Assembly: GCA_002346645.1 (NCBI GenBank) | Contig: DEAD01000011.1 | Coordinates: forward strand, 90,760 to 154,759 | DNA: 64,000 nt | Direction of reading: 5' to 3' | Source of the DNA: Dehalococcoidia bacterium UBA2991 | Lineage (GTDB): Bacteria; Chloroflexota; Dehalococcoidia; Tepidiformales; Tepidiformaceae | Shown: positions 7,898 through 49,990 of the stretch, piece after piece | How the letters are laid out: the number at the start of each line of letters is the position of its first letter | Position numbering within the stretch: the stretch's first letter is position 1 | Position numbers and translations under genes: made by a program | Notes under the pieces: model-generated | The model's input: only the letters and a program-made list of their open reading frames with translations | Databases searched by the model: none | Told to the model about the DNA's origin: nothing

Positions 7898-8551
7898 TCA
7901 GTCGCTATGAAATAGTCTGCGTTCCTCGATGCCGATTTTGATTAGATATCTACCGGTTTCGCAGGCCCGTCCCTTTTGGTGTGAGATCAGTTCACGCACA
8001 TCTGCAGGGGTATCAAGATCGAGAGCTAAAGCAGGTTCCTTCGCCTGGAGAACTTCCAGTCCTGCTTTCTGTGCCGCTGCCCTGTGCAAGTCGCCGCTAC
8101 CCCCGCCAAAAGCTAACGAAAATAGTCCTGGTGGACGGAGAAGCATTGCATTGGTTCCCCCATCTTCGGGGATAACGAGTGTGGCTGAAGGGGAGGGGGG
8201 TGCTTGGATAATTAGATTGTGTAGGGCTTCCGGGGTTGCCAGTGGAAGATCAGCGTGAAGGATTAATAGTTCTTTGACAGAGAGCGCATCAGAGGCATAC
8301 TCGAGTTGTTCGTTAAGCCCATGCCGATTTGGATCCTCGGTGAGGATTGTTACCCCGTTCGGAACCATCGCGAAGACGTCCTCGTCCGAAGTCAAAACCA
8401 CTGCTTTCATGTTTGCGCCCTCGACGGCTGCCAATATCGTCCTCATGAAACGCCGAACCAGCTCTGCCCGCTCTGTCGGCTCCAAAAGTGCTGCTAGGCG
8501 ACCTTTTGCACGGTCTAGTCTGTTTACCGGTATCAGTACCGTTGGGGGCAT
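7898..8551 (-). CDS. cofC: 2-phospho-L-lactate (or phosphoenolpyruvate) guanylyltransferase, F420 biosynthesis
   Basis: 217 aa. The N-terminus VLIPVNRLDRAKGRLAALL...ERAELVRRFMRTIL is the CofC/FbiD-type pattern (IPVK..AKSRL), and the size fits. Confidence 0.7.
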   Translation of the reverse strand: MPPTVLIPVNRLDRAKGRLAALLEPTERAELVRRFMRTILAAVEGANMKAVVLTSDEDVFAMVPNGVTILTEDPNRHGLNEQLEYASDALSVKELLILHADLPLATPEALHNLIIQAPPSPSATLVIPEDGGTNAMLLRPPGLFSLAFGGGSGDLHRAAAQKAGLEVLQAKEPALALDLDTPADVRELISHQKGRACETGRYLIKIGIEERRLFHSD

Positions 8552-8978: not shown

Positions 8979-11600
8979 CTAGGCGAGGTTGCCGTGGCAC
9001 TTTTTGAATTTTTTCCCGCTGCCACAATGGCATGGGTCGTTACGTCCGATCTTCTTAGCTCCGGCTCTTGGCGCTTCCGCTGTTACTGTAGCGCCCTGGC
9101 CACCCGCCCTCGCGCCGTTTGTTGAAACTTCTCTGTTGCTTGCGGAGTCTGGCTGCGGTCTTCGAGCTGTAGTGGCGCGGTTCGGAGGTGCTGGGGGGAG
9201 ATCCTTTGCTCGCATTTTGAAAACTGCTTGCGCTACTTGGCGGCGGATGTTTCCCTGAAGCTGCTGAAACATGTCGTAGCCTTCCCGTTTGAAAGCTACC
9301 AGCGGGTCGACCTGCGCATAAGCCTGTAATCCCACGCTCTGGCGTACTTCATCAACCGCTGTCAAATGCTCCCGCCAGTGATAGTCGATTGTTTCGAGCA
9401 GGAGCAACTGTTCCAGCTTGCGGGCTACTTCATCGCCTACCGTGTCTTCGATCTCCTCGTAGCGGTCCTCGATCTTGTCTAGTGCTACATCTGCGATGCG
9501 TTCTTGCTTCTCCGCAATCTCTTCCAGTGCTGGCAGGATGTCGGGAGGCATGATTTCACCCAGCTCTGCGTGTACTAACTTCGCGTCGAAACCTTCATCG
9601 CGGTTTCTTTCGATAATGCCGTCAATCTCATCCGTTACGAATGAGAATACGTTCTCTCGCACGTCCGCTCCCTGAAGCACCTTGTCTCTTTCCGTATACA
9701 AAACTGCGCGCTGCTCATTGATGACATCGTCGAATTCCACTAGTCGCTTGCGGATGTCGAAGTTATAGCCCTCCACTTTTTGCTGAGCCTGCTCGATTGC
9801 GCGGGTCACCATGCGTGATTCCAGTGGCATGTCCTCCGTCATTCCCATCTTCTCCAGCATTCCTGGTACCCAGTCCGGTGCGAATCGCTGCATGATGTCG
9901 TCTCCGAATGACACAAAGAATCGACTTGAGCCTGGATCGCCCTGTCGGCCCGCCCGCCCGCGTAACTGGTTATCGATGCGTCTTGATTCGTGACGTTCTG
10001 TCCCGATTACGTGTAGCCCGCCGGCCTTTGCAACCCCTTCTCCCAGCTTGATATCTGTACCGCGCCCTGCCATGTTTGTGGCAATTACTACCGCCGCTGC
10101 TTCCCCTGCATTTTCCACAATATTTGCTTCTCGTTCGTGTTGCTTAGCATTAAGCACCTCGTGCTTAATGCCTCGACGAAGAAGCAATTGACCTAGGTAT
10201 TCGGACTTCTCAATTGAGGTGGTTCCCACTAGCACCGGACGGCCCTGCCCGTGCATTTCGATGATCTCTTCCACTACCGCCGCAAATTTGGCCTTCTCGT
10301 TGATGTAGACCATGTCCTCTCGATCCCCACGAACCATTGGCATGTTCGTAGGGATAGCTACTACATCGAGGTTGTAGATCCTCGCGAACTCCTCTGCTTC
10401 AGTCTCTGCCGTTCCCGTCATCCCCGCTAGCTTGGCGTACAGCCGGAAGTAGTTCTGGAAGGTGATTGTGGCGTGGGTCAGCGATTCCCGTTGGATGGGG
10501 ACAGCTTCCTTCGCTTCTACTGCCTGGTGGATTCCGTGGCTCCAGCGTCGACCGGGCATCATGCGCCCTGTGAATTCGTCGACGATGATGATTTCTCGAT
10601 CTCGTACCACGTAATCACGATCAGGACGCTTTAGGTATTCCGCATCCAGTGCTGCTTCCAGGTGGCGTGCAAGTCGAGGGTCTCCCCCAAACAGGTTGTC
10701 TACTCTCAGCGCTCGCTCGATCTTTGCGATACCCGTTTCTGTCAATGCCACATGTTTGGCCTTCTGGTCGAGTGCATAGTCCAGGTCTGCATGGAGGCCA
10801 CGTACGGCTCGCGCGAACATCTGGTAGGTGCCGCTAGCTTCTTCTGCCTGTCCGCTGATGATGAGTGGCGTCCGTGCCTCGTCAATAAGGATGTTGTCGA
10901 CCTCGTCGACGATTGCAAAGAAGAGTGGCCGCTGCGTTTTTAGCTCGCTTTCCCGCACCATATTGTCGCGAAGGTAGTCGAAACCGAACTCGTTGTTCGT
11001 GCCATACGTTACGTCGGTCCGGTAGACGTCTCGGCGCTCGCAGGGTCGTAGGTCCTCCAAGCCTCCCTCTCCGTCCTCGCCTGGGCGATAGCCTGGCTCG
11101 TACAGGTACTGGATGTGATCGTTTTGGATTACGCCTAGGCTCATCCCAAGTGCGTGAAAAATAGGCCCGTACCAAGCTGCATCTCGACGTGCGAGGTAGT
11201 CGTTAACCGTTACCAGGTGTGCGCCTTTTCCAGCCAATGCGTTTAGGTACAGGGGGCCGATTGCAGTTAGGGTCTTGCCCTCCCCCGTCTTCATCTCTGC
11301 GATCTTTCCTTGGTGTAGTACCAAGCCGCCCATCATCTGCACTGGGTAGGGACGTTGTCCCATCTGTCGCCAGGCCACCTCTCGAACCGTCGCGAAAGCC
11401 TCTGGTACGAGGTCCTCGAGTGTCTCTCCTGCGGCTAGCCGTTCGCGGAATTCGCCTGTTAATTCCCGCAGCTTTTCATCTGGGAATGCCGCGAACTTGT
11501 CGTTCAATTCCTCGATCGCGGTAACCGAGGATTCAAGGCGGTTAACCTCGCGCTCGTTAGAGTCGCCCACGATGCGGCCGATAAAGCCAAGCTTTGGCAT
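8979..11600 (-). CDS. secA: Preprotein translocase ATPase SecA
   Basis: 873 aa. Walker A MKTGEGKT, DEVDNILIDEARTPLIISG, TNMAGRGTDIKLG, and the C-terminal zinc finger CHCGSGKKFKKCHG. Confidence 0.97.
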   Translation of the reverse strand: MPKLGFIGRIVGDSNEREVNRLESSVTAIEELNDKFAAFPDEKLRELTGEFRERLAAGETLEDLVPEAFATVREVAWRQMGQRPYPVQMMGGLVLHQGKIAEMKTGEGKTLTAIGPLYLNALAGKGAHLVTVNDYLARRDAAWYGPIFHALGMSLGVIQNDHIQYLYEPGYRPGEDGEGGLEDLRPCERRDVYRTDVTYGTNNEFGFDYLRDNMVRESELKTQRPLFFAIVDEVDNILIDEARTPLIISGQAEEASGTYQMFARAVRGLHADLDYALDQKAKHVALTETGIAKIERALRVDNLFGGDPRLARHLEAALDAEYLKRPDRDYVVRDREIIIVDEFTGRMMPGRRWSHGIHQAVEAKEAVPIQRESLTHATITFQNYFRLYAKLAGMTGTAETEAEEFARIYNLDVVAIPTNMPMVRGDREDMVYINEKAKFAAVVEEIIEMHGQGRPVLVGTTSIEKSEYLGQLLLRRGIKHEVLNAKQHEREANIVENAGEAAAVVIATNMAGRGTDIKLGEGVAKAGGLHVIGTERHESRRIDNQLRGRAGRQGDPGSSRFFVSFGDDIMQRFAPDWVPGMLEKMGMTEDMPLESRMVTRAIEQAQQKVEGYNFDIRKRLVEFDDVINEQRAVLYTERDKVLQGADVRENVFSFVTDEIDGIIERNRDEGFDAKLVHAELGEIMPPDILPALEEIAEKQERIADVALDKIEDRYEEIEDTVGDEVARKLEQLLLLETIDYHWREHLTAVDEVRQSVGLQAYAQVDPLVAFKREGYDMFQQLQGNIRRQVAQAVFKMRAKDLPPAPPNRATTARRPQPDSASNREVSTNGARAGGQGATVTAEAPRAGAKKIGRNDPCHCGSGKKFKKCHGNLA

Positions 11601-11655
11601 GCGTCCAGTGTATCGCGCAGCGTCCTTGGCGAGGAGCTCCGTTCGGTTTTAGTAA

Positions 11656-12174
11656 CTAGTCGACTAGCGCGGCGATGACATCCTCTAGGATTGCATCGGC
11701 TTTTTTTCGCATCTCCTCGTCATTGGCATCCTGGATTGGATGGGGAACGAACAGGCGGCGCACCTCAGGCAGGCCGAGGGACTCAGATTGTGCTGCTGCG
11801 GCCTCAATAAACTCGTCTGAGGCAATAAAAACAGAGGGTATCCCGTTGATTTCGAGCCAGGTCGTATCGTGCACACTGCACGTCGTGCAGGATCCTCAGT
11901 CCGCAAGTCCCTCGATAACGAAGTCAGCCTCTTTCGCTAACTTCTGCCGCAGCGCCTCTGGTGCTGGTTTAGTGAAAGTAGGTTTACTGAATCGGAGGAT
12001 GTCCACATCTGGAAGCCGTTCGCGTAAGCGGATCTCTAACTGGTTCAATAGCACGTCGCCTCGGGGTTTTGAGATATCTAGCAGTGCAACAGTTCCGCTA
12101 ATGGCCTCTGGTCGCTTCGTTAGTGAGCGCCGTACTGGAACACGTTCGTCTGTCGGGTCCAGAATCGTCGTCAT
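11656..12174 (-). CDS. Putative selenoprotein (172 aa) with a U-G-S-C-T-T-C motif. In-frame UGA at 11898-11896 is read as Sec.
   Basis: Track ORFs 11896..12174(-) and 11656..11874(-) share one frame and are separated by a single TGA plus 7 sense codons (G S C T T C S). The fused product reads ...FVIEGLAD-U-GSCTTCSVHDTTWLEINGIPSVF... A hairpin follows directly after the UGA. A GGGAGG SD lies 8 nt before the ATG at 12174. Confidence 0.7.
11876..11890 (-). promoter_or_regulatory. Candidate SECIS-type hairpin for the UGSC gene
   Basis: On the minus strand, CUGCAC-GAC-GUGCAG forms a perfect 6-bp stem that starts 5 nt after the UGA. An alternative fold is UGCAC-(10 nt)-GUGCA. Confidence 0.45.
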
Positions 12175-12293
12175 AGGTCCCGCCTCCCTGGAGTCTGACC
12201 GTACTTCAATTATAGCCTCCCCTTCGAATTCTCCAGGGCGCTACACTTGCTTCGTGAAGGCAGCTATATAGACCCAGGCAAGGAGGTGTCCCT
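12175..12293. promoter_or_regulatory. Divergent control region between the two selenoprotein genes
   Basis: 119-bp spacer. On the minus strand there is a perfect TATAAT at 12214-12209 with a weak -35 (TGGAGA, 15-nt spacing). On the plus strand there is TATATA at 12265-12270. Both genes have strong SDs (GGGAGG at 12188-12183, AGGAGG at 12281-12286). Confidence 0.4.
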
Positions 12294-12542
12294 ATGGCTG
12301 AACCCGCAATGTTGATTTCAATTGAGTACTGTGTCCCCTGAAACTACACCGCAAGGGCCGCGTGGACGGCCCAGGAACTCTTGTCTACTTTCGCCGACCA
12401 AACCGGCTCTCTCGCCCTCATCCCTGGTGCCGGGGGTGCCTTTGAAGTGAAAGTGGATGGTGATCTGGTCTTTTCTAAGAAAGAAAAGGGCCGTTACCCC
12501 GAGATCAAGGAGCTGCAGGAAGCAATCGCAGCCCGTCTATAG
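12294..12542 (+). CDS. SelW/SelT/SelH (Rdx) family selenoprotein, 82 aa. UGA at 12339-12341 is read as Sec.
   Basis: Absent from the ORF track. My translation is MAEPAMLISIEYCVP-U-NYTARAAWTAQELLSTFADQTGSLALIPGAGGAFEVKVDGDLVFSKKEKGRYPEIKELQEAIAARL*. The IEYCxxU / RAAWxAQELL / G.FEV.VDG.L.FSK...GR.PE pattern is the bacterial Rdx family signature with CxxU in place of CxxC. An AGGAGG SD lies 7 nt upstream. Confidence 0.82.
12355..12372 (+). promoter_or_regulatory. Candidate SECIS hairpin for the SelW-like gene
   Basis: GGGCCG-CGUGGA-CGGCCC forms a perfect 6-bp GC stem with a 6-nt loop containing GU. It starts 13 nt after the UGA. Confidence 0.55.
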
Positions 12543-12585
12543 TTTCATCGACAGTCATTAATCAATAACCCCACCGGAGGTCGCA

Positions 12586-12921
12586 ATGCCTTTTATGCTC
12601 GTTCGGCTCGAGTGCAAATACGGAAAGACACAGGAGTTTCAGGAGGTAATGTCGCACCTCGTGCCTGTGCTTGAAGCGAAGGGCTGGCGATTGCATGGCG
12701 CCTACCAGAACAGCATTGGTCGTCTCAACCGATGCTACGATCTGTGGGAGATGCCAGATGCTAACCATGTCGGATCCGTGCTTGCCCTAGCTGGCCAGGA
12801 GCCTGAATTTCGCGAGTGGGCTGATCGTCTCGGCGATTGCCTTGAGCAAGAGGAGCTCGAATTCATGAGTGAGCTCCCCTACTCCATTGAAGCTCGCCAG
12901 CGGCGTGTTGCTGGGGACTGA
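12586..12921 (+). CDS. NIPSNAP family protein
   Basis: 111 aa, dimeric alpha/beta-barrel type. GWRLHGAYQNSIGRLNRCYDLWEMPD resembles the NIPSNAP core (G.L..v.hlW). A GGAGG SD lies 6 nt upstream. It sits 43 nt after the SelW-like gene on the same strand. Confidence 0.65.
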   Translation: MPFMLVRLECKYGKTQEFQEVMSHLVPVLEAKGWRLHGAYQNSIGRLNRCYDLWEMPDANHVGSVLALAGQEPEFREWADRLGDCLEQEELEFMSELPYSIEARQRRVAGD

Positions 12922-12973: not shown

Positions 12974-14206
12974 GTGCCTTTACACTCGGCCTGTATGTCT
13001 GATTTAGCGGGAGTGTCCAGAGCAGCTGACCAAATGGAGGGCGAGCAGGCCTCCGCTCCTTGGCGTCCGCAACCGCTTGCAGCCTCTGGTTGGCCCGAAG
13101 TGTGGGACCTCCCCGCTGGTGTTGTTCCCCGCCAGACTCTTCGAGAGGCAGAACGGCTAGGCATCATCACCACATCTGCTGTCGAGGTACCCGAGAGCGG
13201 ATTCCAGCCAGCCAGTCTCGATCTCCTTCTCGGACCCACTGCCTACCGCATTGGTTCCAGTTTCCTCCCCGGGGACCAGACCGTGAAGGATCGCCTGGGA
13301 GATTTGCAGATCGATAAAGGTATCGATATTCGCTCCGGTGGGATCCTCGAACCCAATCGTCCCTACCTCATTCCACTCATGGAGGGACTTCGGCTTCCGG
13401 CTAATGTGCGCGCCGTTACCAACCCCAAGAGTTCTACGGGGCGGGTGGATATCTTTACTCGTGTGGTGACCGATCACTCTCACCGCTTCGACGACATTGC
13501 TGCTGGGTACGAAGGGGCCCTTTGGCTAGAGGTTTTCTCCCGCTCATTTCTTGTGAAGGTGCACGCCGGCATGGCCCTTAACCAGTTGCGGTTCATCGTT
13601 GAAGACTCTTCTGGCGGCCAGGTTCCTCTCTCGCTACCTTCTTCTGCTCCTGAGACAGTCCGAATCCAACTACGGCCTTCCGCCGAGGAGCCTGAAATGG
13701 AGGAGGAACAGGTGGGGCCTCTGCCAGTAGGGTTCAAAGCGAAACGCAACACCAGTGCTCTCCTTGACCTGGACCGGAGGGACCACGATCCGCGGGAGTT
13801 CTGGGAGCCTATCTGGCCTACCAGCCAGCTTGTCTTAAAGCCGGAGGAGTTTTACCTGCTTCGTTCTCGTGAGCAGATTTCTATCCCTGCCGAACTTGCT
13901 GCTGAAATGGTTCCGTTTGACCCCACTAGTGGAGAGCTACGAACTCACTACGCTGGCTTTTTCGATCCCGGTTTTGGGGCCAGCGTACCCGCAGGTCTTC
14001 CCGCTGTCCTCGAGGTGCGTGCTCATGACGTGCCCTTCATGCTCGAGGATGGCCAAGAGGTTGCTAGCTTTCGTTACCAGAAGCTGGCTGGCCCCCCTGA
14101 CCTCTTATATGGGCAAGAAGCTGGCTCCCACTATGGGGATGAGCGTCAGTGGCGTTTTCTTAGTAAGCACTTCCGTTCATGGGGGCAGCTACCTCTCCGA
14201 TTCTGA
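12974..14206 (+). CDS. 2'-deoxycytidine 5'-triphosphate deaminase (DCD family, long form)
   Basis: GVVPRQTLREAERLGII...GFQPASLDLLLGPTAYRIGSSFLPG matches the PF06559-type N-terminus. FDPGFG appears late in the protein. The start is uncertain (GTG 12974, ATG 12995 or ATG 13037). Confidence 0.78.
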   Translation: MPLHSACMSDLAGVSRAADQMEGEQASAPWRPQPLAASGWPEVWDLPAGVVPRQTLREAERLGIITTSAVEVPESGFQPASLDLLLGPTAYRIGSSFLPGDQTVKDRLGDLQIDKGIDIRSGGILEPNRPYLIPLMEGLRLPANVRAVTNPKSSTGRVDIFTRVVTDHSHRFDDIAAGYEGALWLEVFSRSFLVKVHAGMALNQLRFIVEDSSGGQVPLSLPSSAPETVRIQLRPSAEEPEMEEEQVGPLPVGFKAKRNTSALLDLDRRDHDPREFWEPIWPTSQLVLKPEEFYLLRSREQISIPAELAAEMVPFDPTSGELRTHYAGFFDPGFGASVPAGLPAVLEVRAHDVPFMLEDGQEVASFRYQKLAGPPDLLYGQEAGSHYGDERQWRFLSKHFRSWGQLPLRF

Positions 14207-26825: not shown

Positions 26826-27785
26826 CTACAGATGGGCAACCTGTGGCGCGATCTCGGAGGCGAAGTACTCCGGCCCCTCGTCTGAGTCGAAGTCGATGTG
26901 TTGGAGGACAATCTCTTCTAAACCTAGGTCTGCAAGCTTTCCGAGCTTTTCGACAACCTCGTCGGTTGTGCCGCTGAGGACGCCTCTTCCCTCCATGCGC
27001 TCAATCATGACACTCGGTGACGTTTCAAGGTCGAGGCCGAAGTGAGCCATAGTTTTGGCCGAGATTGCTTTCAACGTGCGCACATTGGGTGCGGCAATGG
27101 GGAAAACCATCATCGAGCGAAAGATTGTCGTGGGATCACGTCCTAAGTCTTCGCAGTGCTGCTCCAGAACATCCAGCTTGTGTGCGTACCCCTCAGGCTC
27201 TGTGACAGTTACACAGTTCCACTCGTCGGCGTGTGCGGCTGCGATACGCAGTGTGCGTTTCTCTCCTGCTCCACCGATGAGGATGGGGGGTCTTCCCGTG
27301 GTAGGCTGCGGTTGATAGCCAGCCTCCTCTAGTTGGTAGAAACGTCCATTAAAGGAGGCTGGGCTTTCCCTCCACAATGTGCGCATAAGGCGCGTTGCCT
27401 CATCAAGTCGGTCGAAGCGCTCCTTTATTGGCGGGAAGGGGATACCGTAGGCTCTGTGTTCGGCCTCGTTCCAGCCAGCGCCGAGTCCCATGACAAAGCG
27501 TCCACCGCTCAGTAGGTCGATCTGTGCGGCCATGCGCGCGTCGTTCACCGGTCTTCGGAATGTAATAGGTGTGACCAACGCCCCGAATCGGAAGGAGTGT
27601 GGCTCCCGCGAGATCGCTGCGAATGAGAGCCACGCCTCCAGCGACTGCATCTCCCGGTTTCCGGTGAAGTAGTGATCAGAGCGGAATAGCGATGCGAATC
27701 CCAGTCGATCTGTGAGATTTGCTATGTGCAGCCAGCGTTCCCAAGTGAGATCGTTTTGCCCCTCGATCATTAGTCCCACACGCAT
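26826..27785 (-). CDS. LLM-class (luciferase-like) F420-dependent oxidoreductase
   Basis: 319 aa. MRVGLMIEGQ...WERWLHIANLTDRLGFASLFRSDHY and PPILIGGAGEKRTLRIAAAHADEWN fit the F420-dependent LLM pattern. Confidence 0.8.
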   Translation of the reverse strand: MRVGLMIEGQNDLTWERWLHIANLTDRLGFASLFRSDHYFTGNREMQSLEAWLSFAAISREPHSFRFGALVTPITFRRPVNDARMAAQIDLLSGGRFVMGLGAGWNEAEHRAYGIPFPPIKERFDRLDEATRLMRTLWRESPASFNGRFYQLEEAGYQPQPTTGRPPILIGGAGEKRTLRIAAAHADEWNCVTVTEPEGYAHKLDVLEQHCEDLGRDPTTIFRSMMVFPIAAPNVRTLKAISAKTMAHFGLDLETSPSVMIERMEGRGVLSGTTDEVVEKLGKLADLGLEEIVLQHIDFDSDEGPEYFASEIAPQVAHL

Positions 27786-29585: not shown

Positions 29586-30647
29586 GTGATGAAGGTTGGT
29601 AATACTTATCGCGCGGGATGGCTCGGGGAGGCTGGCCCCTCAGCGAGAAAGCTCGAAGAGCTTGGTTATGACTACGCTGGTACAGGCGAGATGGCGCATG
29701 ACCCCATGGTGCTGGCAACTGCTGCAGCACTAGCAACGGAGAGGGTTGAGATCGGCACTCTTGCTATTGCCTTCGCCCGCGCCCCTATGGTGCTCGCAAT
29801 GGGGGCCTGGGATTTGCAGCAAGCAACAGGTGGCCGCTTCGCCCTCAGTCTTGGTAGCCAAGTAAAGGGACATATACAGCGGCGATTTGGTATGCCATGG
29901 AGTGCTCCTGCCCCCCGCATGCGTGACTACATCCGTACTCTGCATGCTATCTGGAGTTCTTTCGATTCGGGTGATAGGCCGGATTACGTTGGTGAGACAT
30001 ACCAATTCACCCTAATGAATCCGCTCTTCCACCCCGGTCCTAATGGTTTCCTTCGCCCCAAGGTTTTTCTCGCCGCTGTTGGTGAGGGTATGACTCGTGT
30101 GGCTGGAGAGGTAGCTGATGGTGTTCTCCCCCATGGATTCACTACTGATAAGTACATGCGAGAGGTCTTCCTTCCGAATGTAGCCAAGGGTCTTGAACGT
30201 GGGGGGCGCACATGGGATGACATTGAGGTAACGGGGGGTGGGTTCGCAGTCTTTGGGGAGGACGAGTCTCAGATCGAACAGAAGCTAGACTCGCTCCGTC
30301 AGCCGATCTCCTTCTACGGCTCAACCCGCAGTTACCACGATGTTTGGCGTGTACATGGCTGGGAAGATTTGGGAATGCAGCTACATTCCATGTCGCTGCA
30401 GGGGAAGTGGGAAGAAATGAAGACAATTATTCCCGAGGACGTCTTGCGTGAGTTTGCGCAGACATCCACCTATGATCGCCTACCTCAGTTCGTGGCTGAG
30501 CACCGAGAGTACTCAAGTCGCATGAACTTGGAGATGCCTGTGGAGACCCACTCTCAGCGTGAGCGCTTCCAGCATGTCTTGCGCGAGGTTCAGAAGGTTG
30601 AAACGCCTCGCATCCCCCGTGGGCTTTCTGGTCTGGATCCGGTGTAA
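29586..30647 (+). CDS. LLM-class probable F420-dependent oxidoreductase
   Basis: 353 aa. LEELGYDYAGTGEMAHDP...GGRFALSLGSQVKGHIQRRFGMPW fits the luciferase-like TIM-barrel family. Confidence 0.75.
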   Translation: MMKVGNTYRAGWLGEAGPSARKLEELGYDYAGTGEMAHDPMVLATAAALATERVEIGTLAIAFARAPMVLAMGAWDLQQATGGRFALSLGSQVKGHIQRRFGMPWSAPAPRMRDYIRTLHAIWSSFDSGDRPDYVGETYQFTLMNPLFHPGPNGFLRPKVFLAAVGEGMTRVAGEVADGVLPHGFTTDKYMREVFLPNVAKGLERGGRTWDDIEVTGGGFAVFGEDESQIEQKLDSLRQPISFYGSTRSYHDVWRVHGWEDLGMQLHSMSLQGKWEEMKTIIPEDVLREFAQTSTYDRLPQFVAEHREYSSRMNLEMPVETHSQRERFQHVLREVQKVETPRIPRGLSGLDPV

Positions 30648-31769: not shown

Positions 31770-32963
31770 ATGCAGCTTCCCTGGCGGCTCAAGTTTGGCC
31801 TCTTCATGGCTCCTTACCACCCTGTTAACGACAGTATGACCCTTACCATCCGTCGGGATATCCGCACAATCCAGTGGCTCGATGAGCTTGGTTACGACGA
31901 GGTTTTTATAGGTGAGCACCACTCTGGGGGCTGGGAACCTATTTCTAGCCCGGAGGTGTTTATTGCTCATGTGGCCCAGGAAACGGAGTCAATCAAGCTA
32001 GGTACAGGGGTTGTTTCTATGGGCTACCACAGCCCGTATATGTTGGCGGAACGCATTCTTCTTCTTGACCACCTCACGCGAGGTCGCGTCATGCTTGGTG
32101 TCGGACCGGGGGCAACTGCGCCTGATAATGCTCAGTTTGGCTTCGACGCGACTGAACTTCGCCCTCGCCTTGATGAGGGCCTTGGAGTCGTACTGCGCCT
32201 TCTGCGTGGCGAGGAGGTCACACACACCAGTCCCGGCTGGTTTACTCTCAAGAACGCCTCTTGTCAGCTCCAGCCTTACCACGAAGAAGGCATCCCGGTA
32301 TTTCTGGCCACGACCTCCTCGCCAGGGGGCGCTGTCATTGCTGGAAAACATGGTGTTGGAATTCTCTCAGGTGGTTCTTTCCAACCACTAGGTCCCGGTC
32401 TCAAGAGCACTTGGGATACCGCTGTGGATTCTGCGGCCCAGAATGGTAAGACTTTAAGTCGGCGTGACTACCGCGTCATGACTCGCATCTACGTTGCTGA
32501 GAGTCGTGAACAGGCTTGTAAAGACATGACGAGAGGTCTTTATCAGTTCGACCGGGACTACATTTCCGGCACTCTTGGGCGTCCGTTCACGTATGAAGGT
32601 CCTCCTGAGGACTATGCGAAATGGTGCGTAGAGAATGGTAGTGCCCTCTTTGGTTCGCCCGAAGAGGTTACGGCTAGTCTTGAACGCCTATGGGAGTCGA
32701 GCAATGGTGGTATTGGGGGCATTCTTCTCATGGGTAACGAGTTTGCTTCTCCTGAGCGAATGCGGAATCACTATGAGCTTCTTGCCCGCTACGTGATGCC
32801 TCACTTTCAGGGCTCGTTTGAAAGGCCCATGCGTTCCCATTCTCGAGCAGTGACAGAGCGCGTTGTAAACAACCAGAACGAGGCTAATGCAACTGCGGCA
32901 GCTATTCGTGCCGCTGGCGGTGAGGTTCCCCCAACCATCCTGGGTACCTCCGTGGAACAATAA
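31770..32963 (+). CDS. LLM-class flavin-dependent monooxygenase/oxidoreductase
   Basis: 397 aa. LGYDEVFIGEHHS and GRVMLGVGPG are luciferase-like monooxygenase patterns. Confidence 0.75.
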   Translation: MQLPWRLKFGLFMAPYHPVNDSMTLTIRRDIRTIQWLDELGYDEVFIGEHHSGGWEPISSPEVFIAHVAQETESIKLGTGVVSMGYHSPYMLAERILLLDHLTRGRVMLGVGPGATAPDNAQFGFDATELRPRLDEGLGVVLRLLRGEEVTHTSPGWFTLKNASCQLQPYHEEGIPVFLATTSSPGGAVIAGKHGVGILSGGSFQPLGPGLKSTWDTAVDSAAQNGKTLSRRDYRVMTRIYVAESREQACKDMTRGLYQFDRDYISGTLGRPFTYEGPPEDYAKWCVENGSALFGSPEEVTASLERLWESSNGGIGGILLMGNEFASPERMRNHYELLARYVMPHFQGSFERPMRSHSRAVTERVVNNQNEANATAAAIRAAGGEVPPTILGTSVEQ

Positions 32964-45207: not shown

Positions 45208-46467
45208 CTAATCTACTGTTACGTTTTCAGGGTCCACACCTAGCTTCACAAGTATGGAATCAAGATCCCTCTCAGTCCGAATGTTTCGTACTAGGGACAT
45301 GAATAGGGCAAGATGTTTCGTTTCTTCCCATACCCGCTCGACCTTCGGCCCTATTGGATCTGAGGACTGAGGCAGGTTTGCGTATGACCCGTAGAAAGCG
45401 AAGTACGCTTGGTTGATTTTGCGGATGTTGATTCCGTGGGAGGCAAACTGTTGTCGCTGCTTTTCCATCAATGTCTCGGCTTCGGCCACGAGACCCTGCT
45501 CTAGGAGTTTGTCGACGTCTAGTCGTAGCTGCCGCATCGTGCCAGGGAAGTCAGGAAGGGAATGTTTGTGCGGTGGTGCCCGCCCATCAGCTGCTGTCTC
45601 TAATGCGATGGGGTTCAGCTCCCTTGCGAGGCGTGCGATCTCCTGCTCAGCAACATGCGCTACAGTCTCGTTGAGCTTGGTCCCCTCCCCCTGTCCCCAT
45701 GCTTCTCCTAGCGGGTAGAACGCGAGGTAATGGTGGACCCACTCGTGTGCAGCCAGGCGAAGAACTGAACCGTATGAGCGGTTTTCGAGCACAATTGCTG
45801 GGTATGCCGCCAGCCCTCCAATCGAGACCACTAGTGAGACGATGTTCTCGTTGTCGGTTTGGGCCTCGATCTTTTCGATAGCGGTCAGGCCTAAGTCTGG
45901 GCTCAGAAGAGTGTCGCCTGCCCGACGGATCTCCTTCCGTGGTGAACGCACTAGTAGTTGAGGAGGGTTGGTTAATTCGATGTCAACGGGAGGCCAAAGT
46001 ACTGCGATTCCGCTGAAAAGGGGAAGTGGGCGTCGTAGTCCTGCATGGAGGACCGCGTTAGTCACGTAGCCCTCAATGATTCTTTCTACATCGTTCTCGA
46101 AGAGAGAGCGCTCTTTTGTGAGTTCTTCCAGCAGTATCTGGTCTGGCTCATCAGCCTGGAGTTCTGCCCGAATCGCACTAGTTAGGCGGAAGTAGCTCGC
46201 CAGACGCTCCGTTTCTTCTGCTGCATCTAGTTCTTTTCCTACACCTAGTAGGGTGAAAATAGAGGATGGCAGCTGGCTCGCTTCCCATTGCCAGAGAGAG
46301 AATGTGTGTTCGCTATGCTCCCCTCGGCTCAAGAAGGCGCTGAGGGCAAGTATCAATGCTAGTGCTAGCGTTGCTGCAACTGTAGTGGAGAGGATAAGAA
46401 GTGATGGTCGCCAAGGGATAAGCTCAACGCGTGTGGAGTAGACCCCGGCAAGGCGGATGTTGTTCAC
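45208..46467 (-). CDS. Membrane-anchored hypothetical protein with an HExxH motif (putative Zn-metallopeptidase)
   Basis: 419 aa. N-terminal TM helix LLILSTTVAATLALALILALSAF and LAAHEWVHHYLAF (HExxH). No family recognised. Confidence 0.55.
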   Translation of the reverse strand: MNNIRLAGVYSTRVELIPWRPSLLILSTTVAATLALALILALSAFLSRGEHSEHTFSLWQWEASQLPSSIFTLLGVGKELDAAEETERLASYFRLTSAIRAELQADEPDQILLEELTKERSLFENDVERIIEGYVTNAVLHAGLRRPLPLFSGIAVLWPPVDIELTNPPQLLVRSPRKEIRRAGDTLLSPDLGLTAIEKIEAQTDNENIVSLVVSIGGLAAYPAIVLENRSYGSVLRLAAHEWVHHYLAFYPLGEAWGQGEGTKLNETVAHVAEQEIARLARELNPIALETAADGRAPPHKHSLPDFPGTMRQLRLDVDKLLEQGLVAEAETLMEKQRQQFASHGINIRKINQAYFAFYGSYANLPQSSDPIGPKVERVWEETKHLALFMSLVRNIRTERDLDSILVKLGVDPENVTVD

Positions 46468-46554: not shown

Positions 46555-47136
46555 ATGACAGCAGGGTCTGCGGTAGCCTCAAGAGCGGCGTTCAGTCACC
46601 CTTCGGCACGTCGTCTGCGTTACGCGTCCTTTGAGATGCGCTTTGCTGCCGTTGCCATAGATGCTCTTGTCCTCTTTTTCGTAGCCGGAGTTCTTATCAT
46701 TGCTGGATCGGTCAACCTGCTCCTTTCCTCTGATTTCGATCGAGTGAATGCTTCTGGGGGCGCCATAAACCTCTTTTGGGCTCTCGTTGGGGCAGTTCCC
46801 CTCGCGGTTTTCCTCTACTTCTTCCTTGGCTTTGCCTTCTGGGGCAAGACAGCTGGGGCGGCGATCATGCGTATTAGTGTGGTTCGTTCTGATGGCGCTG
46901 CCCTTGGTGTTTTTGGTGCCCTTGCTCGGGTAATGGGGATGCTTAGCTACGTTCTGCTTTTGGCGATCGGTGCAGTTCTTGCTTTTGTATTGCGGAGTAC
47001 TCCTGCTGCTGCAGGTGCTTTTGTTGGTCTTAGTCTTCTCGTTTGTGTGGCAGGCTTTCTTTGGGCCGTTTTTGATCCCTACCGTAGGGCTCTCCACGAT
47101 CGCATTGCCGGAACTATTGTGGTTCAGGGCGTGTAG
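46555..47136 (+). CDS. RDD family membrane protein
   Basis: 193 aa. YASFEMRFAAVAIDALVLFFV near the N-terminus and RRALHDRIAGTIVV at the C-terminus, as in RDD-domain proteins. Confidence 0.75.
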   Translation: MTAGSAVASRAAFSHPSARRLRYASFEMRFAAVAIDALVLFFVAGVLIIAGSVNLLLSSDFDRVNASGGAINLFWALVGAVPLAVFLYFFLGFAFWGKTAGAAIMRISVVRSDGAALGVFGALARVMGMLSYVLLLAIGAVLAFVLRSTPAAAGAFVGLSLLVCVAGFLWAVFDPYRRALHDRIAGTIVVQGV

Positions 47137-47145
47137 GGTGAATGG

Positions 47146-48219
47146 GTGCTGAGTCGGCGTTCTAGCTTTCCCCAGCGTGGCCCTGTTAGCGAGCGTGTCT
47201 TTGGGCGGGCCTATGCTGAAGCTGAGCATGGCGGTAGATCGCTTGCCGCAGGGCTCTTCGCAATCGCCCTCTTTCTCTTCATTGTGTCTCTTAGCGTCTT
47301 CGAGATGACCCAACCCAATAGGGCCCAGACCCTCCTGGCTGCTGGCCTCGCCTCCCTCACGGATATTGATCAGTTTCTCGAGGAGAATATTCCTTCCCTA
47401 CAGGAGGAAGCGCGCTCCTCCGATGAGTCTAATCTGGAAGTTCCCGACTACCCCCTACCCGTAACCCTTAGTCGGTTGGAAGTTCTTACTGCTGATACAG
47501 AAACCATTCGAGCTTTGGTGCTCCATCGCTCGGCCAAAGTGGTTTATGCGACTGGACTTGATGCTTTTGACGAGACTGGAGAGCAGGCCGCTGAGATTCT
47601 TTCCGTTTCCAACGTCATCCGCGAACTCGTAGGCTTCCTTACGGGGGATATCCATGGTCAGGCTCGCTGGGTGGTGTTAGCCAGTCTCATCGCTGCTACT
47701 GTTATGGGGGCAGCTACACTCCAGCTCAACCGAGGTTTTTCGCGATTCACTTCGTTTGGTCTCGCCGTCCTTCTCGCTTCTGCGCCGGGCTACCTATTTG
47801 CTCGCGGAGGGAGCTATCTTGTTGATCGGTTTGGCTCGGAAGATGCTTTTGTTGTCGATCTGCAGACAGTCGCTCAGGCAATGCTTGCTGTACCTGAGCG
47901 TAACTTTCTAATTGCGGGCTCGATTGGGCTCACTGTCGCGGTGGCTGGGCGAGTTCTGGGTTTGGTTAGCGACTATTTCTTTTCCGATCAGCCATTGGAC
48001 CCAATGGCTTATGACACCGGCCCTGCGGTCCCCTTTCCAGCTGTTCCAGGTCCGACCCAGGAGTTCGTTGACCAGCGGAGAGTTGCCCTTTTCTTGTCCG
48101 AAGGCACTGGTCTTCGCCAGCGATTGTTCTTGAAGTTGCGAGGTATTCGGGCCAATAGGTTCACGAAGAGCGAGTCAGTGAAACTCGAGGCTAATGGAAT
48201 ACGCGAAGACGATTCCTAA
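47146..48219 (+). CDS. Hypothetical membrane protein
   Basis: 357-aa ORF 10 nt after the RDD gene. It has about 5 hydrophobic helices around a soluble insert. No family recognised. Confidence 0.5.
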   Translation: MLSRRSSFPQRGPVSERVFGRAYAEAEHGGRSLAAGLFAIALFLFIVSLSVFEMTQPNRAQTLLAAGLASLTDIDQFLEENIPSLQEEARSSDESNLEVPDYPLPVTLSRLEVLTADTETIRALVLHRSAKVVYATGLDAFDETGEQAAEILSVSNVIRELVGFLTGDIHGQARWVVLASLIAATVMGAATLQLNRGFSRFTSFGLAVLLASAPGYLFARGGSYLVDRFGSEDAFVVDLQTVAQAMLAVPERNFLIAGSIGLTVAVAGRVLGLVSDYFFSDQPLDPMAYDTGPAVPFPAVPGPTQEFVDQRRVALFLSEGTGLRQRLFLKLRGIRANRFTKSESVKLEANGIREDDS

Positions 48220-48940: not shown

Positions 48941-49990
48941 GTGACTGCGCAAGAAATTCGGCTAACGGATTTGACGGGTTGCGGGGGCTGAGCGTCTAAG
49001 GCAGGGCCCCAGGCCCTGGCGCAGGTGCTGTCGCCGCTGACCGTAGACTTTGATCCGATGCAACATCCAGACCTTCTGGCTGGGCTGGGGGCGCCTGATG
49101 ATGCTGCCGTCTACCGAATCAATAATCGAACTGCCGTAATCGCTACCGTCGACTTTTTCGCCCCGCTGGTTGATGACCCTTGGCAATACGGCGCAATCGC
49201 TGCTGCTAATGCTATGTCTGATGTTTACGCGATGGGGGGGGAGGTGGTCCTTGCCCTCAACATTGCCGCATTTCCTGAGGACCTGCCCTCGGAAGTCGCT
49301 GCAGAAATTATCAGGGGTGGTGCTGACAAGGTTGCTGAGGCCGGAGGAGTTGTCGCGGGTGGTCACACAATTTGGGACGATGAGCCTAAGTTTGGCTTGA
49401 GTGTCCTTGGCATTGCGACCCCTTCGCGTCTCCTTCGTAAGGCCGCGCTTCGTCCTGGCGACTTTCTATATCTCACAAAATCGCTGGGTACAGGAGTGAT
49501 CCTCTCTAACGATAGAGGCCAGGAAGAGCATTCTGCTTGGCTGAATACTGCTATCGCTTCGATGCTCCATCTCAACCGCCATGCGGCCCATCTAGCTATC
49601 AGTCATCGCTTACGGGCAGCAACCGACATTACTGGCTTTGGTCTTGTTGGCCATCTCTGGGAGATGGTTGAGAGCTCTGGCGTTTCCGTTACTGTGGAAG
49701 CCGCGGCCCTACCGCTTCTTCCTGGTGCACGGGAATCTGCTGAAAGCGGTATCCAGACTGGAGGGGAGGTTCGTAACCGAGACTGGGTCGGAGACAATTT
49801 CACGGTTGCTAACGGTGTGCCTCCTGCTCTCGCCTCTATAGCTTTTGATCCACAAACTTCCGGAGGCCTTCTGCTTGCGTGCTCGCCTCGCAAGGCCAGA
49901 GTCCTTGAAGCAGCTTTCGCTGCCGACAACGAATCCCTGCATCTCATTGGTCGTGTGGCTAAAGGCGCCCCCCATATTCAGCTCTTCTAG
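48941..49990 (+). CDS. selD: Selenide, water dikinase (selenophosphate synthetase), Sec-containing form. UGA at 48989-48991 is read as Sec17.
   Basis: The track ORF (49025..49990) lacks the catalytic N-terminus. Extending in frame gives (GTG)MTAQEIRLTDLTGCGG-U-ASKAGPQALAQVLSPL... This aligns residue-for-residue with E. coli SelD [26 protein letters not shown] (I6-R7-L8-T9, U17=C17, K20). The body of the protein (DDAAVYRI..., DFFAPLVDDPWQYGAIAAANAMSDVYAMGG) is SelD. Confidence 0.9.
49002..49018 (+). promoter_or_regulatory. Candidate SECIS hairpin for selD
   Basis: CAGGGCC-CCA-GGCCCUG forms a perfect 7-bp stem (or 6 bp with a 5-nt loop). It starts 11 nt after the UGA. Confidence 0.55.

What the first reader, a model, noticed from the sequence alone, without database searches (positions are those of the whole stretch)
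12294..12542. Hidden SelW/Rdx-family CxxU selenoprotein gene in a region the ORF track shows as empty
No track ORF of at least 60 aa covers 12272-12561 on either strand. From ATG 12294, with AGGAGG 7 nt upstream, the frame reads MAEPAMLISIEYCVP, then TGA (12339-12341), then NYTARAAWTAQELLSTFADQTGSLALIPGAGGAFEVKVDGDLVFSKKEKGRYPEIKELQEAIAARL and TAG. IEYCxxU, RAAWxAQELL and G.FEV.VDG.L.FSK..GR.PE.KEL are the conserved blocks of bacterial Rdx (SelW/SelT/SelH) thioredoxin-fold proteins, with Sec in the second redox position. A 6-bp GC hairpin with a GU-containing loop (12355-12372) starts 13 nt after the UGA. Standard gene callers would miss this gene entirely.
Basis: partly seen in the sequence, partly recalled or inferred. 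Interest (0 to 1): 0.8.

Follow-up and report, generated by a model that had tools for sequence, protein, structure and literature searches.

The report
SelW-like selenoprotein gene hidden by UGA
This is a real but ordinary small redox-protein gene of a marine Chloroflexota bacterium whose apparent stop codon very probably encodes selenocysteine; it belongs to the most common selenoprotein family of marine microbes, and gene callers truncate it.

Summary
The finding holds. Window 12294-12542 (+) encodes an 82-residue SelW-like (Rdx, PF10262) protein with a C13-V-P-U16 motif. The in-frame TGA is at 12339-12341.

- **Family:** with U replaced by C, the protein scores 95.8 bits against Rdx (cutoff 22.6), and the match spans the UGA.
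- **Conservation:** the TGA sits at the same codon in 46 related loci and aligns with Cys in 34 others. The protein is conserved on both sides of it.
- **SECIS hairpin:** GGGCCG-CGUGGA-CGGCCC (12355-12372) meets all four published bacterial SECIS rules.
  - All 33 distinct UGA forms keep the full stem, against 9 of 33 Cys forms.
  - One stem pair shows all four Watson-Crick types.
  - Three four-fold-degenerate codons inside the hairpin are invariant in 34 sequences.
- **Genetic code:** TGA is a normal stop in this genome.
- **Other selenoprotein genes:** the window holds two more UGA-interrupted genes. One is a divergent UGSC-family gene next door (11656-12174, -). The other is SelD, the selenium-donor enzyme (48941-49990, +).
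- **Not found:** SelA, SelB and tRNA-Sec are not in the window.
- **Source:** the organism is a Tepidiformaceae-like bacterium (Chloroflexota).

The family is already known, so this is an annotation rescue rather than new biology.

The parts
12281..12286 (+). Shine-Dalgarno AGGAGG, 7 nt upstream of the start codon
   Evidence: Read directly from the sequence.
12294..12542 (+). SelW-like / Rdx-family selenoprotein gene. It has 82 codons including Sec16 and ends at TAG 12540-12542.
   Evidence: Translation. PF10262 scores 95.8 bits over residues 8-79 and TIGR02174 scores 74 bits. E=4.8e-20 to the solved Cys homologue 2FA8.
12330..12341 (+). Redox motif C13-V-P-U16. TGT is at 12330-12332 and the Sec codon TGA at 12339-12341.
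   Evidence: It aligns with YCTQC of Atu0228. TGA is conserved in 46 loci and replaced by TGC/TGT in 34.
12355..12372 (+). Bacterial SECIS hairpin. The 5' arm is 12355-12360 (GGGCCG), the loop is 12361-12366 (CGUGGA) and the 3' arm is 12367-12372 (CGGCCC).
   Evidence: Energy is -12.9 kcal/mol and the spacing from UGA to loop is 19 nt. Pairing is 100% in 33 distinct UGA forms. One pair is GC 18, CG 13, AU 1, UA 1. The Cys forms show 83% pairing, and two pairs are each broken in 14 of 33. Codons GCC, GCG and ACG are invariant in 34 of 34 sequences.
12175..12293 (.). 119-bp divergent intergenic region shared by the Rdx and UGSC genes. Its role as a shared promoter region is inferred.
   Evidence: Coordinates. 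No sigma-70 consensus match. The arrangement is conserved in Tepidiformaceae-like loci.
11656..12174 (-). Divergent neighbour: a UGSC-family selenoprotein gene of 172 codons. Sec93 is TGA at 11898-11896 and the motif is U-G-S-C. GGGAGG at 12188-12183 is a likely ribosome-binding site.
   Evidence: Translation. With U->C, NF041046 scores 165.8 bits against a cutoff of 125, covering profile 4-146 of 147. TGA is conserved in all 21 loci that carry the gene.
11868..11882 (-). Candidate SECIS upper stem of the UGSC gene: CGUGCA-GUG-UGCACG. The loop GUG begins 19 nt after the UGA.
   Evidence: The upper stem alone is -7.4 kcal/mol, and it reaches -11.1 with a lower stem. Eight of the nine codons from +5 to +13 are invariant across 20 distinct sequences, including the rare codon AGU.
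48941..49990 (+). SelD (selenide, water dikinase), itself UGA-interrupted. The start is GTG 48941 and Sec17 is TGA at 48989-48991. A candidate SECIS lies at 49018-49035.
   Evidence: TIGR00476 scores 324 bits on the truncated ORF (profile 33-310). The N-extended U->C protein scores 350.6 bits (profile 1-310 of 311), and NF002098 scores 314.3 against a cutoff of 299. The UGA is conserved in 4 relatives. The hairpin is -7.5 kcal/mol.

Best explanation
Window 12294-12542 (+) is a functional gene for an 82-residue SelW-like (Rdx-family) thioredoxin-fold protein. Its redox motif is Cys13-Val-Pro-Sec16.

UGA 12339-12341 is not a stop here. During translation, the hairpin 12355-12372 inside the coding sequence acts as a bacterial SECIS element. 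Its apical loop is CGUGGA, 19 nt after the UGA. It recruits SelB-GTP-Sec-tRNA(Sec) to the ribosome, so selenocysteine is inserted and the remaining 66 codons are translated.

The product most likely works as a small selenol/thiol oxidoreductase. The Sec16 selenolate attacks an oxidised substrate, a Cys13-Sec16 selenenylsulfide forms, and a cellular thiol reductant reduces it again.

Shown here:
- family membership
- conservation of the UGA and of both flanking coding parts
- an RNA-level constraint on the hairpin that is specific to the UGA forms
- TGA is otherwise a stop in this genome
- a SelD gene is in the same window

Inferred:
- actual Sec insertion
- SelB binding
- the redox chemistry and its substrate
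For: - **Family.** PF10262 scores 95.8 bits (cutoff 22.6) across the UGA. TIGR02174 scores 74 bits against 34.2. Six solved bacterial Cys homologues match at E=5e-20 to 7e-15, with YC..C aligned to YCVPU.
- **Conservation.** TGA is at the same codon in 10 of 10 metagenomic orthologue loci and in 46 of 80 genome loci, with Cys codons in the other 34. Codons upstream of the UGA vary synonymously while the amino acids are kept.
- **SECIS rules** (PMC13188914). The loop is 6 nt, the stem is 6 bp, the loop has G at position 2 followed by U, the spacing is 19 nt, and the energy is -12.9 kcal/mol.
- **Covariation.** Pairing is 100% in 33 distinct UGA forms, and pair 18:33 is GC 18, CG 13, AU 1, UA 1. 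The full stem is kept in 33 of 33 UGA forms, against 9 of 33 Cys forms, or 3 of 33 with Watson-Crick pairs only.
- **Synonymous sites.** Ala GCC, Ala GCG and Thr ACG inside the hairpin are invariant in 34 of 34 sequences. Other invariant 4- or 6-fold residues carry 1.0-2.3 bits of codon entropy.
- **Genetic code.** TGA ends 18 of 60 long ORFs, and table-11 ORFs cover 94% of the window.
- **Pathway.** SelD is in the window and is itself UGA-interrupted at the catalytic position. That UGA is conserved in 4 relatives. A second UGA-interrupted selenoprotein gene (UGSC) lies next door.
Against: - No SelA, SelB or tRNA-Sec gene is in the 64-kb window. The rest of the genome could not be searched.
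- The hairpin's folding energy is not exceptional against shuffles (z from +1.05 to -1.85). Overall MFE does not separate UGA forms from Cys forms.
- Much of the stem is forced by the conserved protein motif RAxWxAQ. The Cys forms still pair in 83% of cells.
- The UGA forms with this hairpin are all Chloroflexota-like and more closely related to each other than the Cys forms are. The Fisher tests and shuffle controls therefore overstate independence.
- There is only one covarying pair.
- No Rfam family matches.
- There is no experimental evidence of selenium incorporation.
Confidence: 0.93

Rival explanations
1. The TGA is a genuine stop. The locus is a decayed or split gene, and at most a 15-aa peptide and/or a 53-aa C-terminal fragment from TTG 12381 is made.
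For: Public gene callers emit exactly that 53-aa fragment (P0003) and 51-52 aa fragments in relatives. No SelA, SelB or tRNA-Sec is seen in the window.
Against: The TGA is fixed at one codon in 46 loci from several phyla, exactly where the homologues have the catalytic Cys. The 15 upstream codons are conserved as protein with synonymous variation. The fragment would lack the CxxC/U active site. The hairpin is constrained at synonymous sites only in the UGA forms.
Confidence: 0.02
2. TGA is a sense codon in this organism (genetic code 4 or 25, Trp or Gly), so the protein has CxxW or CxxG.
For: Two public pipelines translated the orthologues with W at this site (P0001, P0004).
Against: Their DNA has TGA, and the loci do not re-translate to those proteins under table 11. 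In the window TGA terminates 18 of 60 long ORFs, and table-11 ORFs cover 94% of the sequence. Homologues have Cys, not Trp or Gly, at the site.
Confidence: 0.01
3. The UGA is recoded through the SECIS/SelB route but delivers cysteine rather than selenocysteine. This could be constitutive, through a tRNA-Sec-like tRNA charged with Cys, or conditional under selenium limitation.
For: Nothing here distinguishes Sec from Cys insertion. Cys forms of the family are clearly functional (34 loci). That such Cys-at-UGA systems have been reported in some bacteria is my own recollection and was not checked here.
Against: SelD, which is needed only for selenium use, is present and is itself UGA-interrupted at its catalytic residue. 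The family is overwhelmingly a Sec family in marine samples, with 427 Sec against 56 Cys (PMC2398784).
Confidence: 0.03

Closest known systems
Prokaryotic SelW-like selenoproteins (Rdx family, PF10262 / TIGR02174), described from the Sargasso Sea and GOS metagenomes
   Same: Same family by profile and the same CxxU motif. The sample is marine, with a Tara-derived contig. PMC2398784 lists SelW-like as the most abundant marine prokaryotic selenoprotein family, with 427 Sec forms and 56 Cys forms.
   Different: Nothing essential. This copy is from a Tepidiformaceae-like Chloroflexota genome. It sits head-to-head with a UGSC selenoprotein gene.
Solved bacterial Cys homologues: Atu0228 (2FA8), 2OKA, 2OBK, 2OJL, 3DEX, 2P0G
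   Same: The alignment covers residues 3-78 at E=4.8e-20. It includes YCxxC, RAxWxAQE and the GxFE..VDG and KEL blocks.
   Different: Those proteins have Cys at the second redox position and C-[NR]-W after it. This protein has Sec followed by N-Y. They are about 20 residues longer at the C terminus.
Mammalian SELENOW and MIEN1 (C17orf37, 2LJK)
   Same: Same Rdx superfamily. 2LJK matches at E=1.3e-9.
   Different: Eukaryotic members use a 3'-UTR SECIS with the SBP2/eEFSec machinery. Here the SECIS lies inside the coding region immediately after the UGA.
Bacterial SECIS consensus (bSECIS model summarised in PMC13188914; prototype E. coli fdhF)
   Same: The loop size, stem length, G-U in the apical loop, 16-37 nt spacing and energy threshold are all met.
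   Different: SelB binding was not tested. The element overlaps the family's most conserved protein motif (RAAWTAQ), so protein and RNA constraints are superimposed.

Membership tests
Rdx / SelT-SelW-SelH family (PF10262, TIGR02174) | Profile-HMM score above the curated cutoff over the full domain | tested here: met
   PF10262 scores 95.8 bits against 22.6, covering profile 2-73 of 74. TIGR02174 scores 74 bits against 34.2.
Rdx / SelT-SelW-SelH family (PF10262, TIGR02174) | CxxC or CxxU redox motif near the N terminus | tested here: met
   The motif is C13-V-P-U16, aligned to the YCTQC motif of Atu0228. The site is Cys or UGA in all 80 related loci.
Rdx / SelT-SelW-SelH family (PF10262, TIGR02174) | Thioredoxin-like fold | tested here: met
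   Met by sequence homology only: E=5e-20 to 7e-15 to six solved bacterial family members over residues 3-81. No model was built.
NF041051 SelTWH_Campy equivalog | Score at or above the curated cutoff of 88 bits | tested here: not met
   The score is 82.6 bits. It is not filed under this narrower equivalog.
Bacterial selenoprotein gene (UGA recoded to Sec) | In-frame UGA aligned with Cys in homologues, with coding conservation on both sides | tested here: met
   There are 46 TGA loci and 34 TGC/TGT loci. Orthologues are shown and the codon table.
Bacterial selenoprotein gene (UGA recoded to Sec) | bSECIS: 3-9 nt apical loop, 4-16 bp upper stem, G in the first two loop positions, 16-37 nt from the UGA, MFE <= -7.5 kcal/mol | tested here: met
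   The loop is CGUGGA (6 nt, G at position 2 and then U), the stem is 6 bp, the spacing is 19 nt and the energy is -12.9 kcal/mol. The rules are from PMC13188914.
Bacterial selenoprotein gene (UGA recoded to Sec) | RNA-level selection on the SECIS (covariation or synonymous constraint) that is absent from Cys forms | tested here: met
   The caveats are that only one pair covaries and that the UGA forms are related to each other.
Bacterial selenoprotein gene (UGA recoded to Sec) | The genome encodes SelA, SelB, tRNA-Sec and SelD | tested here: inconclusive
   SelD is present. SelA, SelB and tRNA-Sec are not in the 64-kb window.
Bacterial selenoprotein gene (UGA recoded to Sec) | Selenium is physically incorporated at the UGA position | not testable with these tools
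   This needs 75Se labelling or mass spectrometry.
UGSC family (seleno)protein (NF041046, PF24696), for the neighbouring gene | Profile score above the cutoff and a U/C-G-S-C motif | tested here: met
   NF041046 scores 165.8 bits against 125 with U->C. The motif D-U-G-S-C is seen. The TGA is conserved in 21 loci.

The most novel reading that the evidence does not exclude
The Rdx family's most conserved protein motif, R-A-[AG]-W-x-A-Q, itself encodes most of a SECIS hairpin at the right distance from the second redox residue. Even the Cys forms pair in 83% of stem cells, and 9 of 33 keep a full stem. Switching between Cys and Sec would then need only the TGY-to-TGA change plus a few synonymous substitutions. 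That built-in 'proto-SECIS' could explain why SelW-like is the most Sec-biased and most abundant prokaryotic selenoprotein family.

A weaker second reading is that the head-to-head CxxU (Rdx) and UxxC (UGSC) genes form a co-regulated two-selenoprotein redox couple.
Probability: 0.25. Interest if true: 0.45.

Novelty: new member of a known kind. Interest (0 to 1): 0.3.

Why it matters
The main value is for annotation. In this 64-kb window three genes (SelW-like, UGSC-family and SelD) are truncated, split or mistranslated by standard gene callers. An antisense shadow ORF of 198 aa can be called in place of the UGSC gene. Public protein sets contain these artefacts for this lineage. Recognising the genes shows that Tepidiformaceae-like marine Chloroflexota use selenium. 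It also supplies a clean comparative example of a SECIS element superimposed on a conserved protein motif. It does not reveal a new kind of system.

Tried and rejected
- **Folding-energy statistics.** The z-scores for the post-UGA region are unremarkable (+1.05, -0.31, -1.85). MFE over +6 to +45 does not separate UGA forms from Cys forms, so thermodynamics alone is not evidence here.
- **Rfam.** The gathering scan of the whole window found only two tRNAs. A permissive scan of 11600-12700 found nothing.
- **My own strict bSECIS scanner.** It used only an uninterrupted upper stem with isolated energy <= -7.5.
  - It passes the Rdx element.
  - It fails the UGSC stem (-7.4) and the bulged SelD stem.
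  - It passes only 9 of 18 distant UGA forms and passes 7 of 34 Cys forms.
  - It is therefore too crude to discriminate.
- **Promoter scan.** The divergent intergenic region has no sigma-70 match.
- **Other read-through genes.** A search of unoccupied parts of the window for UGA read-through candidates found nothing convincing.
- **Sec machinery.** A search among all ORFs of 300 aa or more for SelA and SelB found none.
- **Literature.** PMC5029168 does not mention Chloroflexi in its main text.
- **Code 4/25.** Rejected on stop-codon usage.

Full report
**Observation.**
- AGGAGG lies at 12281-12286, followed by a 7-nt spacer and ATG 12294.
- The frame reads MAEPAMLISIEYCVP, then TGA (12339-12341), then 66 further sense codons, then TAG (12540-12542).
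- Listing ORFs down to 30 aa shows only 42-, 53- and 34-aa + strand ORFs inside 12272-12561. The 'empty' appearance at a 60-aa threshold is therefore real.
- The hairpin GGGCCG-CGUGGA-CGGCCC occupies 12355-12372. It starts 13 nt after the UGA and is the centroid and MFE structure of the local RNA at -12.9 kcal/mol.

**Family.** With U written as C, the 82-residue protein hits Pfam Rdx (PF10262) at E=1.7e-27.
- The score is 95.8 bits against a gathering cutoff of 22.6.
- The match covers protein residues 8-79 and profile 2-73 of 74, so it runs straight across the UGA.
- NCBIfam TIGR02174 (CXXU_selWTH) gives 74 bits against 34.2.
- The narrower Campylobacter-type equivalog NF041051 is just missed, at 82.6 bits against 88.
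- Six solved bacterial Cys-containing family members match at E=5e-20 to 7e-15, and human MIEN1 at 1e-9. The YC..C motif of Atu0228 aligns to YCVPU.
- Membership of the thioredoxin-fold Rdx family is secure.

**Is the UGA conserved and coding?** A homologue search returned the 53-aa truncated call of this very gene (P0003, 100% identical, from a 181,742-bp Tara/JGI contig). It also returned 51-52 aa truncated calls at 82-88% identity and many full-length Cys forms.
- I fetched the DNA of ten related metagenomic loci. Every one has TGA at the same codon, preceded by an in-frame M...ISI[ET]YCV[PT].
- Two database proteins show 'W' at this position (P0001, P0004). Their DNA has TGA, so these are gene calls made under a TGA-sense code.
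- A scan of 185,579 species genomes gave 80 loci. The nearest, at 80-86% identity, are Tepidiformaceae and Dehalococcoidia MAGs (Chloroflexota).
- Of the 80 loci, 46 carry TGA and 34 carry TGC or TGT at the site. The [IV]x[IL]x[YF]C motif upstream is conserved in all of them.
- Among 34 distinct orthologues, the nine codons before the UGA keep their amino acids while varying synonymously. That is the signature of translation in this frame on both sides of the UGA.

**Is the hairpin a SECIS or a by-product?** Thermodynamics alone does not decide this.
- The z-scores against dinucleotide shuffles are +1.05 to -1.85.
- UGA forms and Cys forms have similar MFEs, because both are GC-rich and share the motif RAxWxAQ.

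The comparative evidence does decide it.
- **Pairing.** In 33 distinct UGA-form sequences the six stem pairs form in 100% of cells. The loop CGUGGA is invariant. The only variable pair runs through all four Watson-Crick combinations without a single mismatch: G:C 18, C:G 13, A:U 1, U:A 1. That pair joins the Arg third position to the Ala third position.
- **Control.** With the same mask on 33 distinct Cys forms, 83% of cells pair, which is the part forced by the protein motif. Two pairs are each broken in 14 of 33 sequences and the loop has 14 variants.
- **Full stems.** These occur in 33 of 33 UGA forms. They occur in 9 of 33 Cys forms with G-U allowed and 3 of 33 with Watson-Crick pairs only.
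- **Codon usage.** Ala+6 is GCC, Ala+7 is GCG and Thr+9 is ACG in all 34 distinct sequences, including an AT-rich one (L006). GCG and ACG are not the preferred codons. Every other invariant four- or six-fold-degenerate residue in the gene (L13, L14, L26, P28, G29, G32, S45, P53) carries 1.0-2.3 bits of codon entropy.
- **Published consensus.** The bacterial SECIS rules are met in full: apical loop 3-9 nt, upper stem 4-16 bp, G in the first two loop positions usually followed by G or U, 16-37 nt between UGA and loop, and MFE <= -7.5 kcal/mol (PMC13188914). Here the loop is 6 nt with C-G-U-G-G-A, the stem is 6 bp, the spacing is 19 nt and the energy is -12.9 kcal/mol.
- **Caveats.** There is only one covarying pair. 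The UGA forms carrying this exact hairpin are all Chloroflexota-like and so are not independent. No Rfam model matches.

**Alternative decoding.** TGA ends 18 of 60 long ORFs in the window, and table-11 ORFs cover 94% of it. A TGA-sense genetic code is therefore excluded.

**Context and selenium pathway.** The minus-strand neighbour (12174 to 11656) is separated by a 119-bp divergent intergenic region. It is a second UGA-interrupted gene.
- It reads ...EGLAD-U-GSCTTC... through TGA 11898-11896.
- With U->C it scores 165.8 bits against the UGSC-family model NF041046 (cutoff 125).
- Its TGA is conserved in all 21 loci that carry the gene.
- After the UGA comes a conserved hairpin CGUGCA-GUG-UGCACG, again with 19 nt between UGA and loop. 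Eight of the nine codons from +5 to +13 are invariant, including the rare Ser codon AGU that supplies the loop's G-U.
- The 198-aa + strand ORF 11675-12271 overlaps this gene antisense and has no family hit. It looks like a shadow ORF.

Further along, ORF 49025-49990 is SelD.
- It scores 324 bits against TIGR00476 (cutoff 125) but lacks profile positions 1-32.
- The same frame upstream reads (GTG 48941) TAQEIRLTDLTGCGG-TGA-ASKAGP.
- The extended U->C protein covers profile 1-310 of 311 at 350.6 bits and now passes the stricter NF002098 model, at 314.3 against 299.
- The UGA is conserved in four relatives at 55-81% identity.
- Those relatives also share a hairpin GGCGCAG-GUN-CUG(U)CGCC, 33 nt after the UGA.

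So the window holds three predicted selenoprotein genes, one of which makes the selenium donor. SelA, SelB and tRNA-Sec are not in the window, and the rest of the genome was out of reach.

**Synteny.** The order SecA, UGSC, Rdx, NIPSNAP, dCTP deaminase, DHDPS is conserved in Tepidiformaceae-like loci. UGSC is not within 6 kb of Rdx in the more distant Chloroflexota. That argues against an obligatory functional coupling of the two genes.

**Mechanism.**
- Shown: a Rdx-family gene with CxxU; a conserved UGA; a SECIS-like hairpin under RNA-level selection; and SelD nearby.
- Inferred from established knowledge of bacterial Sec decoding (the SelB/SECIS mechanism) and of Rdx and thioredoxin-fold CxxC/U proteins:
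  - SelB-GTP-Sec-tRNA(Sec) binds the hairpin and inserts Sec at codon 16.
  - The protein cycles between a selenolate/thiol form and a Cys13-Sec16 selenenylsulfide as a small oxidoreductase.
- The substrate is unknown for all bacterial members (PMC13188914).

**Comparison and novelty.** SelW-like proteins with CxxU were described from the Sargasso Sea and GOS metagenomes. They are reported as the most abundant marine prokaryotic selenoprotein family, with 427 Sec and 56 Cys sequences in GOS. UGSC-containing proteins, with 255 Sec and 21 Cys, are also among the major families (PMC2398784). NCBI has curated models for both.

This is therefore a new member of a known kind, in a lineage whose public gene calls are truncated. 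The one mildly original observation is that the family's conserved protein motif already encodes most of the SECIS stem even in the Cys forms. That could ease Cys-to-Sec switching. I rate this as possible but untested.

**Verdict.** Interest is low to moderate (0.3): it is a correct and useful annotation rescue, not a surprise to a specialist.

Noticed in passing
window 11656-12174 (-), TGA at 11898-11896: A second UGA-interrupted selenoprotein gene lies head-to-head with the finding. It belongs to the UGSC family (D-U-G-S-C) and scores 165.8 bits against NF041046 with U->C. Public gene calls split it into 92-aa and 72-aa pieces. Its TGA is conserved in 21 loci, and a conserved hairpin CGUGCA-GUG-UGCACG has its loop 19 nt after the UGA.
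   Followed up: yes
window 48941-49990 (+), TGA at 48989-48991: SelD (selenophosphate synthetase) is itself UGA-interrupted at the catalytic position (GG-U-ASK). The standard ORF starts at GTG 49025 and loses the N-terminal 28 residues. The UGA is conserved in 4 relatives (L091-L094). A conserved bulged hairpin at 49018-49035 has loop GUG, 33 nt after the UGA.
   Followed up: partly
window 11675-12271 (+): A 198-aa ATG ORF with no Pfam or NCBIfam hit lies antisense to the UGSC gene. It is probably a shadow ORF that a gene caller could pick in place of the split real gene.
   Followed up: partly
L005 3001-3255; L006 363-611; L007 358-606: The public protein records P0001 and P0004 show Trp at the Sec position, but their DNA has TGA. 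These contigs were evidently gene-called under a TGA-sense code (4 or 25), which produced a false CxxW protein.
   Followed up: yes
L011-L090, the codons after the Sec/Cys site: UGA forms have U-[N/D/G/K/H]-Y after the redox residue. Cys forms have C-[R/G/N/K/H]-W almost without exception. This correlated difference immediately 3' of the recoded codon is unexplained. It could reflect UGA context or active-site tuning.
   Followed up: no
alignment A3 (Cys-form loci L036-L088), columns 17-34: Cys forms of the family still pair in 83% of the SECIS stem cells, and 9 of 33 keep a full stem, because the protein motif RAxWxAQ encodes it. This may be a 'proto-SECIS' that eases Cys-to-Sec switching.
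   Followed up: partly
window 45208-46467 (-), 46579-47313 (-), 47146-48219 (+): Three sizeable ORFs (419, 244 and 357 aa) just upstream of SelD have no Pfam hit. The 419-aa and 357-aa ORFs also have no NCBIfam hit. The 244-aa and 357-aa ORFs overlap each other on opposite strands, so at least one is probably spurious.
   Followed up: no
window 7898-8551 (-), 51743-53086 (+), 26826-27785 (-), 29586-30647 (+), 31770-32963 (+): CofC-like and CofD genes, together with three luciferase-like monooxygenase genes, suggest coenzyme F420 biosynthesis and F420-dependent enzymes in this organism.
   Followed up: no
window 12974-14206 (+): The 410-aa dCTP deaminase ORF from GTG 12974 is probably called too long. 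Pfam domains begin at residue 48, and the orthologues are called at 397-398 aa.
   Followed up: no
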